Source of the DNA: an uncultured Gammaproteobacteria bacterium
GTDB lineage: Bacteria; Patescibacteriota; Patescibacteriia; UBA9934
Assembly (NCBI GenBank): GCA_964452565.1
Contig: CAYVLY010000001.1
Location: 224,351 to 288,350, forward strand
DNA length: 64,000 bases
Direction of reading: 5' to 3'
This document shows positions 51,805 to 53,354 of the stretch, in pieces. Numbering within the stretch: position 1 is the stretch's first letter; the number at the start of each line of letters is the position of its first letter. Below the pieces are notes generated by a model that saw nothing but the letters and a program-made list of their open reading frames with translations, made no database searches and was not told where the DNA came from. Both the position numbers and the translations under genes were made by a program.

Positions 51805-51852
51805 ACCGCCTCAGAGAACCGGGGCGGCGTGAACGACGGACGTGGGTTGTAG
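51805..51852. repeat. about 48-bp direct repeat (hairpin + GAACGACGGACGTGGGTTGTAG); second copy at 52221-52269
   Basis: The 30 nt GGCGGCGTGAACGACGGACGTGGGTTGTAG are identical in both copies. Each lies 4 nt downstream of a minus-strand small gene. Confidence 0.6.
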
Positions 51853-51856
51853 TTGG

Positions 51857-52144
51857 CTAGAGCGGGAAGGTCATCTCCAAGCAGCCAGTACCATCACACT
51901 GGAGGCTGAGCCCGTGGATGTGAACCGTGTGCCGAGATGGCTCGTCCAGCCCATACTTTCCCTGACCCATGACGAGACGTGGTACAACGCCCTCGCCCTG
52001 CAGGGGCATCCTCTCCCTCTCGATAAGAGCCTTGACCAGCTCATCGATCCCGGGCTGCTTCTTGCCTTCCCTGATTGCCACACCAACCACGGCATAGATC
52101 TCGTCGATCATCGCCGCGGATACAACAACCTTCTTGCCTGCCAT
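51857..52144 (-). CDS. hypothetical 95-aa protein (cassette gene 1)
   Basis: Own promoter TTGACA-N17-TATAGT at about 52180-52210 (minus) and RBS GGAGGTGCACGC-ATG. Confidence 0.4.
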   Translation of the reverse strand: MAGKKVVVSAAMIDEIYAVVGVAIREGKKQPGIDELVKALIERERMPLQGEGVVPRLVMGQGKYGLDEPSRHTVHIHGLSLQCDGTGCLEMTFPL

Positions 52145-52272
52145 GCGTGCACCTCCATGCATGTGAAATTGAGACAGGTCAAAAACTATACCCTAAAAAT
52201 GCTGCCTTGTCAATAGCAAACGCCGCCTCGGAGAACCAAGGCGGCGTGAACGACGGACGTGGGTTGTAGGCG

Positions 52273-52536
52273 CTAGGCGGTGCCCGGCGTGACGGGGATG
52301 CGAACCAACACAGGGTCGAAACCAGCCTCGGTCAGGAGAGGCTTCATCGCTACGAAGAACTCATCTCCAACCTGGTGTGCCGCCACCGCGATCCGGAAGC
52401 CTCGCATGAAACCAGCCTGCATTGCCTTGGAGATTGCTCTGCCGAACTGACCGAGATCATCACCAGGCTCCCAATGAGACAGCGCTTGAACAGCGACCTC
52501 ACGAAGCTGACGCTCTACTACTTGCCTACCCGACAT
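52273..52536 (-). CDS. hypothetical 87-aa protein (cassette gene 2)
   Basis: RBS GGAGGTGCACAC-ATG is near-identical to gene 1. Promoter-like TTGACA at about 52620 (minus). Confidence 0.4.
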   Translation of the reverse strand: MSGRQVVERQLREVAVQALSHWEPGDDLGQFGRAISKAMQAGFMRGFRIAVAAHQVGDEFFVAMKPLLTEAGFDPVLVRIPVTPGTA

Positions 52537-52634
52537 GTGTGCACCTCCAAGTGCGGTGAAAGAAGGGGAAAGGAAGGGATCACGAATACGCCTCGCATCA
52601 TGCACTTATTTGGCGTATTTGTCAAGTCTTAGCT

Positions 52635-53354
52635 CTAAAATATAGGCGACACGCCAGCCAATGCAGCAATCAAAATCGAAAACCACCAATACATCCAGTC
52701 CCCCTTTGTCCTTATCGTCAAAAAATCCTCAAGTACATACATCATCCGCAAAGGAAGGAAAAATATCAAAAATAGAATCATTGTTATACCAACATACACA
52801 ACCGACAGCAAAATATCATCCATGATAAGCTCCACCTGCATATTTGCGCTTATCGTCTCCCAAATCGCTGTGTAGCCTACGCACAAAAAAATGGTTAGAA
52901 AGACATCCGCAACGATCTCATTCAATCCGCTGTGCTTTTTAGTAGCTCCCTCGGACATTATGATACGAACTAACAAAACAATCTCACGGATCAACCCGAT
53001 AGCCATCACAAAACCATACAAAAACTCCGAGCTATCATGATGAATCCCAAGGCCCTCAAGCCCAAAATTCAACAAAAAACTCATTACTACAAGATGGAAC
53101 ATCCAAACCAGAAAGATGTGAATGCTCTGCTCTTTATTCTCACCTTTCAACCTTGCATAAATCTCTGGCGCCTTTATCCATATCCCAACTGTTTCCAAAA
53201 CAAAAATTGTCAAAAGTATAATGCCTGCAATCCTACCACCATATCCATCACCAATCACAAACCCAAACATTGGCAACAACCAACCCTGCACAAACAAGGC
53301 ATATATAACAAAAATTGCTGTCACCAAAGTTCCGTGTGATCTACTAATACTCAT
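52635..53354 (-). CDS. hypothetical polytopic membrane protein
   Basis: Start at ATG 53354 (MSISRSHG) downstream of the RNase gene stop. 7-8 TM helices. Confidence 0.45.
   Translation of the reverse strand: MSISRSHGTLVTAIFVIYALFVQGWLLPMFGFVIGDGYGGRIAGIILLTIFVLETVGIWIKAPEIYARLKGENKEQSIHIFLVWMFHLVVMSFLLNFGLEGLGIHHDSSEFLYGFVMAIGLIREIVLLVRIIMSEGATKKHSGLNEIVADVFLTIFLCVGYTAIWETISANMQVELIMDDILLSVVYVGITMILFLIFFLPLRMMYVLEDFLTIRTKGDWMYWWFSILIAALAGVSPIF

What the first reader, a model, noticed from the sequence alone, without database searches (positions are those of the whole stretch)
51805..52640. Two duplicated promoter-RBS-small gene-terminator cassettes with a conserved 30-nt 3-prime flank
Minus-strand genes at 51857-52144 and 52273-52536 have different coding sequences but near-identical translation-initiation regions (GGAGGTGCAC(G/A)C-ATG). 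Each has its own TTGACA promoter. Each is followed, 4 nt after the stop, by a hairpin plus the identical 30-nt GGCGGCGTGAACGACGGACGTGGGTTGTAG (on the plus strand). Conserved flanks around divergent cargo recall integron-like or toxin-antitoxin-like cassette shuffling. The two products (95 and 87 aa) matched nothing I recognise.
Basis: seen in the sequence. Interest (0 to 1): 0.6.

Follow-up and report, generated by a model that had tools for sequence, protein, structure and literature searches.

The report
Tandem orphan small-gene units, homogenised flanks
Two tiny orphan genes in an uncultivated Uhrbacteria (CPR) chromosome each carry their own promoter, ribosome-binding site and terminator; these flanks are kept nearly identical within the genome while the coding parts have diverged beyond recognition, and this is a lineage-specific tandem array, not an integron or a toxin-antitoxin pair.

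Summary
A 51-nt direct repeat (92% identical, 30 nt exact) follows two minus-strand ORFs, g1 (95 aa) and g2 (87 aa). Each ORF has a TTGACA-N17 promoter and GGAGGTGCAC(R)CATG. The repeat is 22 nt plus an intrinsic-terminator hairpin.

The host is a ~43% GC Candidatus Uhrbacteria chromosome. The ~59% GC pair sits with a tRNA-like gene between two convergent core genes. Those genes abut in three relatives and are separated by one membrane-protein gene in a fourth.

The sister species has two units of the same design in the same slot. Both of its ORFs are g1 homologues (38% and 28% identity).

The 3' flanks are 92-94% identical within each genome but only ~57% between genomes, and the terminator loops are species-specific. 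That indicates concerted evolution by gene conversion, not a shared mobile site.

g2 has no detectable relative, but its predicted helix-strand order (α-α-β-β-β) matches g1.

I found no integrase, no attC core sites, no operon structure and no hit in Pfam, PHROGs, PADLOC, NCBIfam, phage, plasmid or viral collections.

Best reading: a moron-like tandem array of autonomous, fast-evolving orphan genes. It is one of about ten GC-rich micro-islands in this window. Function is unknown. Interest is moderate.

The parts
52597..52625 (-). Promoter-like site of unit 2 (g2): TTGACA-17 nt-CATGAT. The -35 hexamer starts 10 nt after the stop codon of the upstream membrane-protein gene.
   Evidence: 10/12 matches. 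Resembles the slot-1 promoter of the sister species, CTAAGnnTTGACAAAT...CATAGT.
52534..52548 (-). Translation-initiation region of g2: GGAGGTG Shine-Dalgarno, 5-nt spacer, ATG.
   Evidence: sequence.
52273..52536 (-). g2 ORF: 87 aa, TAG stop, 59% GC. No homologue found anywhere. AlphaFold single-sequence model has pLDDT 72 with order α-α-β-β-β.
52219..52269 (-). 3' flank copy 2: 22-nt CTACAACCCACGTCCGTCGTTC, then a 12-bp terminator hairpin (52220-52247) and a T-rich tail that runs into the -35 of the g1 promoter.
   Evidence: (-30.1 kcal/mol, z -3.6).
52185..52213 (-). Promoter-like site of unit 1 (g1): TTGACA-17 nt-TATAGT.
   Evidence: 11/12, the best in a 19-kb scan. Resembles the slot-2 promoter of the sister species.
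52142..52156 (-). Translation-initiation region of g1: GGAGGTGCACGCATG. The 15 nt ATGCATGGAGGTGCA are identical to those upstream of gene A in the sister species.
51857..52144 (-). g1 ORF: 95 aa, TAG stop, 59% GC. Member of a three-protein family (g1, L042-A, L042-B) with C-terminal motif R-x-x-[VL]-x-I-[HY]-G-L-x-L-x4-TGC-x-E. AlphaFold model has pLDDT 77 with order α-α-β-β-β.
51802..51852 (-). 3' flank copy 1: the same 22 nt, then a hairpin (51803-51830, with one C.A mismatch and two G.U pairs) and UUCUGCUUUU.
51540..51785 (+). Co-inserted neighbour on the opposite strand: TTGACA at 51540, a conserved leader with two hairpins, a tRNA-like gene at 51666-51742 (class-I cloverleaf, anticodon UGA, G3:U70, A73, encoded CCA) and a terminator at 51761-51785.
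52635..53354 (-). Left border of the slot: a core membrane-protein gene, 40% GC, downstream of the beta-CASP RNase gene (53344-54714).
50943..51539 (+). Right border of the slot: a FecR-like core gene, 41% GC, convergent with the cassette genes.

Best explanation
The locus is a lineage-specific tandem array of two autonomous, monocistronic small-protein genes. Each unit is read from its own sigma-70-type promoter, translated from a near-perfect Shine-Dalgarno site, and ended by its own intrinsic terminator. The array lies, together with a tRNA-like gene, between two convergent housekeeping genes of a marine Candidatus Uhrbacteria chromosome. The repeated flanks are the regulatory modules of a tandemly duplicated transcription unit. 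They stay almost identical within each genome through intra-locus gene conversion (concerted evolution). The ORF bodies diverge, or are replaced, much faster. g1 belongs to a tiny family confined to two sister species. g2 is most likely an extremely diverged paralogue of that family, with the same predicted helix-strand order; less likely it is a replacement ORF. Shown: the anatomy, the insertion relative to other genomes, the family relation of g1, A and B, and flank identity that is high within genomes and low between them. Inferred: gene conversion, independent transcription, and the origin of g2. The proteins' function is unknown. Their small size, lack of a signal peptide, rapid evolution and tandem arrangement fit accessory or conflict-related proteins, but this is a guess.
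For: Anatomy. Host and insertion: beta-CASP anchors identify Candidatus Uhrbacteria. Synteny RimK-Dus-bCASP-(memb)-FecR-like-Trx-Era is conserved. bCASP and the FecR-like gene abut in L049, L051 and L052, and are separated only by the membrane gene in L002/L050. The only g1 homologue among 1.84 billion representative proteins (P0004, E=1.3e-4) sits in the same slot of the sister species. There, two units show the same design: TTGACA-17-CATAGT, GGAGGT, ORFs of 93 and 92 aa, TAG stops, and a 51-nt repeated 3' flank at 94% identity. g1, A and B are homologous (38% and 28% identity; E=2.7e-13 and 1.9e-9). Concerted evolution: the 3' flanks are 92-94% identical within a genome but 56-58% between genomes. 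The stem CGCCGCC/GGCGGCG is shared by all four copies, while the loop differs between species and is shared within each genome. The perfectly identical tract is the pre-hairpin segment here but the hairpin in the sister species, which argues against one constrained element. ORF DNA identity between species is 40-45%, against 83-87% for the RBS region. Mosaic 5' regions: the g2 promoter resembles A's, the g1 promoter resembles B's, and the g1 RBS block equals A's. g1 and g2 share predicted secondary-structure order, and their top (non-significant) Foldseek neighbours are the same LC8-type chains. A second tandem array in the window repeats the pattern: an identical 25-nt terminator hairpin follows two distant paralogues.
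Against: No transcript data exist, so promoters and terminators are consensus matches only. The g1 terminator was not called by the scan. g2 has no sequence-detectable link to the g1 family in any of six frames. The shared fold rests on two medium-confidence models and non-significant structure hits. Only two genomes carry the array, so gene conversion cannot be tested statistically, and independent recent duplications of the flank cannot be excluded. The rest of the 709-kb genome could not be searched for further copies of the flank. High GC3 (0.57-0.73 versus 0.40 in core genes) persists in both species and is not explained by simple duplication and divergence.
Confidence: 0.55

Rival explanations
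1. Flank-guided ORF swapping. The conserved translation-initiation block and 3' flank act as homology arms. ORFs from an unsampled GC-rich gene pool (a phage or plasmid of these bacteria, or other strains) are exchanged into fixed expression slots by homologous recombination. On this reading g2 is foreign cargo, not a diverged paralogue.
For: Similarity between the two units is confined to about -25..+21 around the start codon and to the 51 nt after the stop codon, with nothing in between. g2 matches no frame of the family profile. Promoter, RBS and ORF affinities are mosaic between the two species. GC3 stays high in both species although core proteins are only ~80% identical, which suggests renewal rather than old residence. 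About ten other GC-rich orphan islets interrupt conserved synteny.
Against: No donor was found. g1, g2 and the flank are absent from 5.8 billion protein clusters, from the genome, metagenome and viral contig collections, and from the phage and plasmid collections. No alternative cargo was seen in any retrieved contig; six sister-species contigs (L042-L047) carry identical A and B. g1 and g2 share predicted secondary-structure order.
Confidence: 0.25
2. The 22-nt segment plus hairpin is a functional RNA element in its own right, for example a 3'-UTR-derived small RNA or a protein-binding or stability element. It would be kept identical by purifying selection rather than by gene conversion.
For: The 22 nt upstream of the hairpin are predicted single-stranded and are 22/22 identical. 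This resembles the seed-plus-terminator layout of 3'-UTR small RNAs. All four genes end in TAG, followed by a related sequence.
Against: The segment is only about 55-60% conserved between the two species, and in the sister species the identical tract is the hairpin instead. No complementary site occurs in the window. Pairing between the 5' UTR and the 3' flank is no better than for shuffled sequence. No Rfam family matches.
Confidence: 0.12
3. Integron-type gene cassettes, with the repeated flank serving as an attC recombination site.
For: Two small, same-strand orphan ORFs, each followed by a repeated element that contains an imperfect inverted repeat.
Against: No integrase in the 64-kb window. 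No RYYYAAC/GTTRRRY core site on either strand. Each unit has its own promoter. The hairpin is a 12-bp GC stem with a 4-nt loop and a T-tract, that is, a terminator. There are only two copies.
Confidence: 0.02
4. A toxin-antitoxin pair or similar two-gene addiction module.
For: Two adjacent small genes of about 90 codons on the same strand.
Against: They are separate promoter-to-terminator units 128 nt apart. Neither has a Pfam, NCBIfam or PADLOC match. In the sister species both slots hold paralogues of one family rather than two complementary partners.
Confidence: 0.03

Closest known systems
Phage 'morons' (independent transcription units added between conserved genes; PMC3594210)
   Same: Each unit has its own promoter and terminator. 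[quoted passage not shown] The units sit between genes that are adjacent in related genomes. The products are small and of unknown function.
   Different: They lie in a bacterial (CPR) chromosome among housekeeping genes, not in a prophage. No phage genes are nearby and there are no hits in phage or viral collections. They occur as a tandem pair with homogenised flanks.
Tandem paralogue arrays with concerted evolution by gene conversion (classic cases: duplicated tuf genes, rRNA operons; from general knowledge)
   Same: The copies are more alike within a genome than between sister genomes, and the changes are species-specific but shared by both copies.
   Different: Here homogenisation affects only the short non-coding regulatory flanks. 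The coding regions have diverged to 38% identity or less, or to nothing detectable. In the classic cases it is the coding regions that are homogenised.
Integron gene cassettes with attC sites
   Same: An array of small, same-strand orphan ORFs, each followed by a repeated element containing an inverted repeat.
   Different: No IntI and no attC core sites. The cassettes carry promoters. The repeat is an intrinsic terminator. There are only two units.
Type II toxin-antitoxin modules
   Same: Two adjacent genes of about 90 codons each.
   Different: Not an operon. No family match. The sister species has two paralogues of one family in the same slots.
Repeated extragenic palindromes that double as terminators (REP/BIME-type elements; from general knowledge)
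   Same: A GC-rich hairpin repeat placed just downstream of stop codons.
   Different: There are two copies only, both inside one locus. The window does have a separate dispersed REP-like family with a different sequence.

Membership tests
Integron cassette array | A tyrosine-recombinase integrase (IntI) with an attI site adjacent to the array | tested here: not met
   Pfam scans of 61 ORFs of the 64-kb window (all major non-overlapping ORFs of at least 100 aa, plus g1 and g2) found no integrase, recombinase or transposase domain. The rest of the genome was not available.
Integron cassette array | An attC site after each ORF: an imperfect palindrome bounded by RYYYAAC and GTTRRRY core sites | tested here: not met
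   No RYYYAAC or GTTRRRY on either strand of 51700-52700. The repeat folds as a 12-bp GC stem with a 4-nt loop and a T-tract.
Integron cassette array | Cassettes are generally promoterless and are expressed from a common Pc promoter | tested here: not met
   Each ORF has its own TTGACA-17-TATAGT or CATGAT site. These are consensus matches; no expression data exist.
Type II toxin-antitoxin module | A bicistronic operon with closely spaced or overlapping genes under one promoter | tested here: not met
   A terminator and a new promoter lie in the 128-nt spacer between g2 and g1.
Type II toxin-antitoxin module | At least one product belongs to a known toxin or antitoxin family | tested here: not met
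   No Pfam, NCBIfam, PADLOC or PHROGs match at permissive thresholds.
Moron-like autonomous unit | Own promoter and own terminator flanking the gene | tested here: met
   for the window; for the sister species. Sequence-based only.
Moron-like autonomous unit | Nucleotide composition differs from the neighbouring genes | tested here: met
   GC is 0.59 for g1 and g2, against 0.40-0.45 for the flanking core genes. GC3 is 0.57-0.73, against 0.40.
Moron-like autonomous unit | Present as an extra insertion between genes that are adjacent in relatives | tested here: met
   bCASP (with or without the membrane gene) and the FecR-like gene abut in L002, L049, L051 and L052.
Moron-like autonomous unit | Resides in a phage or prophage genome | tested here: not met
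   The window encodes ribosomal proteins, aminoacyl-tRNA synthetases, cell-wall enzymes, Era and Dus. g1 and g2 have no phage, viral or PHROGs hits.
Rho-independent terminator | A GC-rich stem-loop directly followed by a U-tract, downstream of a stop codon | tested here: met
   The g2 copy is called by the scan (12 pairs, 9 of them GC). The g1 copy folds at -18.4 kcal/mol and is followed by UUCUGCUUUU, but is not called. The stem is conserved in all four units of the two species. Termination itself was not measured.
Dispersed extragenic repeat (REP-like) | Many copies scattered through the genome | tested here: inconclusive
   Only two copies in 64 kb, at up to 3 mismatches. No 22-mer hit in public collections. 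The remaining ~645 kb of this genome could not be searched.
Canonical bacterial tRNA-Ser (for the adjacent tRNA-like gene) | A class-II tRNA with a long variable arm, the main SerRS identity element (general knowledge) | tested here: not met
   77 nt with a 4-nt variable loop. The acceptor stem and T-arm match a tRNA-Ala.

The most novel reading that the evidence does not exclude
These marine Uhrbacteria may keep a dispersed set of 'expression slots': promoter-RBS ... terminator frames that are homogenised by gene conversion. Within these slots, GC-rich orphan ORFs would be swapped or renewed without any integrase. The persistent high GC3 would be maintained either by GC-biased gene conversion or by continuous exchange with an unsampled GC-rich gene pool. 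The g1/g2 pair and the 45926-47359 array would be two visible instances of a genome-wide flexible-gene system covering about 19% of this window. The co-inserted Ala-type tRNA-like RNA might be functionally linked to it.
Probability: 0.12. Interest if true: 0.7.

Novelty: new variant of a known kind. Interest (0 to 1): 0.4.

Why it matters
CPR (Patescibacteria) genomes are tiny and are usually described as streamlined and static. Here a fifth of a 64-kb housekeeping region consists of GC-rich, lineage-restricted, fast-evolving orphan genes. Each is packaged as its own transcription unit, and in at least two places the regulatory flanks evolve in concert while the ORFs do not. If that is general, it shows how ultra-small symbionts generate and turn over accessory genes without classical mobile-element machinery. 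It also gives concrete targets, namely small soluble proteins with strong expression signals, for asking what lineage-specific functions such organisms need. For annotation, it shows that conserved flanks around divergent cargo can arise from tandem duplication plus flank homogenisation, and need not indicate an integron or a toxin-antitoxin system.

Tried and rejected
- Exact 22-mer of the flank in genome contigs, viral contigs and metagenome contigs: no hits.
- Word-indexed homology search of g1 and g2 against 5.8 billion clusters: self-hits only.
- Third homology search, on the membrane protein: wasted, because the E-value cut-off was too strict and only the self-hit returned.
- Exhaustive phmmer with g1: one distant hit, which became the key lead.
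- Pfam, PHROGs, PADLOC, NCBIfam and PDB sequence searches: nothing.
- Phage and plasmid tblastn, and a viral profile scan: nothing.
- g2 as a frame-shifted or inverted derivative of a g1-type gene: rejected by a six-frame profile search.
- Pairing between the 5' UTR and the 3' flank: no better than shuffled sequence.
- attC core-site scan: none.
- Rfam on both species: only the window's tRNA call.
- Strain-level variants through exact-protein look-ups: only the same Logan contig was returned.
- Insertion scars at the Trx-Era islet: none could be recognised.
- Literature search for GC-rich islets in Uhrbacteria or CPR: nothing relevant.
- Direct superposition of the g1 and g2 models was not possible with the available tools.
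Full report

Yes. Read on the minus strand, 51790-52640 holds two units of the same design.

- Unit 2: TTGACA-17 nt-CATGAT (52625-52597), GGAGGTGCACACATG (52548-52534), an 87-codon ORF g2 (52536-52273, TAG stop), then CTACAACCCACGTCCGTCGTTC and a 12-bp hairpin (52247-52220).
- Unit 1: TTGACA-17 nt-TATAGT (52213-52185), GGAGGTGCACGCATG (52156-52142), a 95-codon ORF g1 (52144-51857, TAG stop), the same 22 nt, and a slightly degraded copy of the hairpin (51830-51803).

The repeat finder gives a 51-nt direct repeat at 92% identity. 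The 15-nt initiation block is also found only twice, but that alone is weak, since 2 of 100 shuffles match it.

The two promoters are the best-scoring sigma-70-like sites in a 19-kb scan. Both ORFs have coding-like GC by codon position. The two proteins are unrelated by BLASTP, by Smith-Waterman against shuffles, and by profile comparison.

Small corrections: the spacer after the stop codon is 4 nt for g1 and 3 nt for g2. In RNA sense, the 30-mer precedes and enters the hairpin rather than following it.

**2. Where are we?**

The window averages 45.5% GC, and its core genes run at 39-46%. It contains about ten islets of 52-61% GC, covering 12.1 kb or 19% of the window. The finding is one of them.

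Pfam scans show an ordinary chromosome: ribosomal proteins, RpoA, AlaRS, GltX-type and class-II synthetases, ClpB, PriA, Def, Fmt, MurJ, a Mur ligase, a PBP, Era, Dus and RimK. No integrase or transposase was found.

Anchoring on the neighbouring beta-CASP RNase identifies the organism as a Candidatus Uhrbacteria, a member of the CPR/Patescibacteria. The same DNA was assembled independently in a Logan contig. The protein index also records an NCBI contig of 709,517 bp for these products. An assembly chimera is therefore unlikely.

**3. The slot in relatives**

The order RimK-Dus-bCASP-(membrane protein)-FecR-like-Trx-Era is conserved across Uhrbacteria.

- In L049, L051 and L052 (bCASP 57-60% identical), bCASP and the convergent FecR-like gene abut.
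- In L002/L050 only the membrane-protein gene lies between them.
- The window therefore carries an extra ~1.1 kb. It consists of g2, g1 and, on the other strand, a tRNA-like gene with its own promoter, leader and terminator.

**4. The key relative**

g1 and g2 hit only themselves among 5.8 billion protein clusters. An exhaustive phmmer search of 1.84 billion representatives gave g1 one distant relative, P0004 (93 aa, 37% identity, E=1.3e-4).

Its encoding contigs (L042-L047) come from several marine metagenomes and two Uhrbacteria MAGs. They place it in the same slot of the sister species, whose core proteins are 66-87% identical to the window's. The order there is bCASP, gene A (93 aa), gene B (92 aa), the tRNA-like element, then the FecR-like gene.

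A and B each have a TTGACA-17 promoter, a GGAGGT ribosome-binding site, a TAG stop and a 51-nt repeated 3' flank at 94% identity that contains a terminator. A and B are both homologues of g1, at 38% and 28% identity, and share the C-terminal motif R-x-x-[VL]-x-I-[HY]-G-L-x-L-x4-TGC-x-E.

A profile of the three proteins finds no other member in six-frame translations of the window and the 127 loci held at that point. It also matches no frame of the g2 region.

**5. What the flanks tell us**

Aligning the four 3' flanks shows a shared stem, CGCCGCC/GGCGGCG. The loop and upper stem differ between the species but are the same in both copies within each species.

| Segment, window versus sister species | DNA identity |
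|---|---|
| 3' flanks | 56-58% |
| Promoter regions | 54-59% |
| RBS blocks | 83-87% |
| ORFs | 40-45% |
| tRNA-like gene | 94% |
| tRNA-like leader | 91% |

Within a genome, the 3' flanks are 92-94% identical.

The perfectly identical tract is the pre-hairpin 22 nt plus 8 nt in the window, but the hairpin and T-tract in the sister species. A single functionally constrained element would be conserved in the same place and across species. What is seen instead is the signature of homogenisation between the two copies after the species split, that is, gene conversion or a very recent copy event.

The 5' sides are mosaic. The g2 promoter resembles A's (slot 1), the g1 promoter resembles B's (slot 2), and the block ATGCATGGAGGTGCA is identical in g1 and A. 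Recombination among units has therefore occurred.

In every scenario, the ORF bodies have changed far more than their flanks.

**6. What is g2?**

There are two options.

(a) An extremely diverged paralogue. AlphaFold gives g1 helices at 10-25 and 30-44 and strands at 56-62, 71-77 and 88-94 (pLDDT 77, from a two-sequence alignment). It gives g2 helices at 3-19 and 28-42 and strands at 48-56, 59-68 and 76-80 (pLDDT 72, single sequence). The order of elements is the same. Both models also draw the same LC8-type chains as their top Foldseek neighbours, although those hits are not significant. The first seven residues are similar as well (MAGKKVV versus MSGRQVV).

(b) A replacement ORF recombined in between the conserved ends. 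Supporting this, there is no sequence signal at all and the similarity boundaries are sharp.

I favour (a) slightly.

**7. What it is not**

- Not an integron. There is no integrase in the window, no attC core site, each unit has its own promoter, and the repeat is a plain intrinsic terminator.
- Not a toxin-antitoxin pair. The genes are separate transcription units, there is no family match, and the sister species has two paralogues of one family in the slot.
- Not detectably phage- or plasmid-derived.
- No sign of a 5'-3' UTR interaction and no known RNA family.

**8. Closest concept**

The units meet three of the four features that define phage morons: own promoter and terminator, deviant GC content, and insertion between genes that are adjacent in relatives (PMC3594210). 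They sit in a bacterial chromosome, not a prophage. The flank behaviour is concerted evolution of tandem duplicates, restricted here to the non-coding regulatory modules.

**9. Wider context**

Genes in 43-64 kb fall into two classes.

- Core genes: GC 0.39-0.46, 54-87% identical in the sister species, and mostly found in up to 24 other Uhrbacteria loci.
- GC-rich genes: GC 0.50-0.61, absent from all other Uhrbacteria loci, and either absent from the sister species or only 30-35% identical there.

GC3 is 0.62 in the GC-rich genes against 0.40 in the core genes. The sister species has GC-rich orphan islets at corresponding places. Trx and Era are adjacent in most relatives but are separated here by a 1.7-kb islet.

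A second tandem array, at 45926-47359, has three distant paralogues. An identical 25-nt terminator hairpin follows two of them. The finding is therefore one instance of a lineage-wide class of fast-evolving, autonomously expressed, GC-rich orphan genes.

Why GC3 stays high in both species, when synonymous sites of the core genes must be saturated, is unexplained. Biased gene conversion or repeated renewal from an unsampled pool are the candidate explanations.

**10. Verdict**

The integron and toxin-antitoxin readings are not supported.

The best explanation, at confidence about 0.55, is a moron-like tandem array of two autonomous small-protein genes whose regulatory flanks are homogenised by gene conversion. 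The function of the proteins is unknown.

I rate it a new variant of a known kind, with interest 0.4. The array itself is moderately unusual. The genome-wide GC-rich islets and the neighbouring Ala-type tRNA-like gene are the more intriguing leads.

Noticed in passing
window 51666-51742 (+), with leader 51540-51665 and terminator 51761-51785; L042 10752-11000 (-): ARAGORN calls this gene tRNA-Ser(UGA), but it is a 77-nt class-I cloverleaf with no long variable arm. Its acceptor stem (GGGCCUG/CAGGUCC with G3:U70, A73 and encoded CCA) and its T-arm match a tRNA-Ala(UGC) in viral contig L129 and the tRNA-like domain of a tmRNA in L130. The anticodon loop is UUUGACA: anticodon UGA, a pyrimidine at position 37, and a U31.C39 mismatch. 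AlaRS charges by G3:U70 regardless of the anticodon (PMC10543346). It is therefore a candidate Ala-accepting tRNA that reads Ser UCA codons, or a non-translational tRNA-like RNA. The gene is 94% conserved and its leader 91% conserved in the sister species, where neither Rfam nor default ARAGORN detects it. It is absent from the more distant relatives.
   Followed up: partly
window 4936-7236, 13956-16026, 21866-22326, 28156-30046, 43146-43836, 45956-48006, 49076-50666, 51766-52556, 57026-58116: About ten GC-rich islets (52-61% GC, GC3 ~0.62) lie in a genome whose core genes run at 39-46% GC, and cover 19% of the window. In 43-64 kb, their genes have no Pfam match (one marginal exception) and are absent from other Uhrbacteria. 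In the sister species they are either missing or only 30-35% identical, while core genes there are 54-87% identical. Many are followed by strong GC-rich terminators. The Trx-Era islet (49076-50666) interrupts a gene adjacency that is conserved in most relatives.
   Followed up: partly
window 45926-47359; hairpins at 46777-46801 and 47391-47415: A second tandem array holds three distant paralogues that share a [VI]FPE[GC]P motif. Two of them are followed by an identical 25-nt terminator hairpin, ACGACCACCCTTCTCGGGTGGTCGC, with unrelated sequence on both sides of it. The third gene has a TTGACT-17-TATAAC promoter and an AGGAGG site. This is the same pattern as the finding: ORFs diverged, terminator identical.
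   Followed up: partly
window 2054-2160, 10412-10457, 23709-23746, 30050-30094, 54768-54853: A dispersed REP-like family, AACCCCCTCTAYCTCCCCCTTCGRAAGGGGGAG, is a hairpin-containing repeat of about 33-37 nt with at least seven copies in both orientations. Some copies are paired head to head. At least one seems to lie inside an ORF (10412).
   Followed up: no
window 28586-29155 (-), 29314-30000 (-), 7343-8218 (-), 4982-7342 (-): Two ECF-type sigma-factor genes sit in a GC-rich islet. One of them is 55% identical to an AT-rich sigma gene at 7343-8218. That AT-rich gene is followed directly by a GC-rich 786-aa orphan ORF containing ~85-nt internal repeats (5982-6066 / 6684-6768 and 6202-6285 / 6847-6930).
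   Followed up: no
window 11073-11118 and 42977-43036: A shared palindromic motif, AGTTGAAC-N-GTTCAACT(AA), lies upstream of clpB (11171) and in the divergent spacer between the SpoU methylase gene and the 43130 ORF. It looks like a repressor operator, possibly for a heat-shock regulon.
   Followed up: no
window 49096-49170 and 21864-21938: Two GC-rich islet genes share a lipoprotein-type signal peptide (MKRTLPFLTLLTLALLLVGC, 52% identical over 25 aa) but nothing downstream of it. This is another case of a conserved 5' end with divergent cargo.
   Followed up: no
window 52145-52162 and 52537-52605: The NCBI-derived gene models start g1 and g2 further upstream, giving 101 aa from an ATG and 110 aa from a GTG. 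The Shine-Dalgarno positions and the Logan gene calls support 95 and 87 aa. The in-frame upstream ATG inside ATGCATGGAGGTGCA is conserved in the sister species.
   Followed up: partly
L129 (IMGVR_UViG_3300009008_000023) and L130 (IMGVR_UViG_3300032284_000390): These two viral contigs were retrieved through the tRNA 26-mer. They carry tRNA arrays (14 tRNAs within 14 kb in L129), tRNA(CUA) amber-suppressor-like genes and, in L130, a permuted tmRNA. They may be stop-codon-recoded phages. They have no protein similarity to the window.
   Followed up: no
L042 3035-3637: The sister species has an IS200-type Y1 transposase gene in a very AT-rich patch (~30% GC), about 6 kb from the slot. No counterpart was seen in the window.
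   Followed up: no
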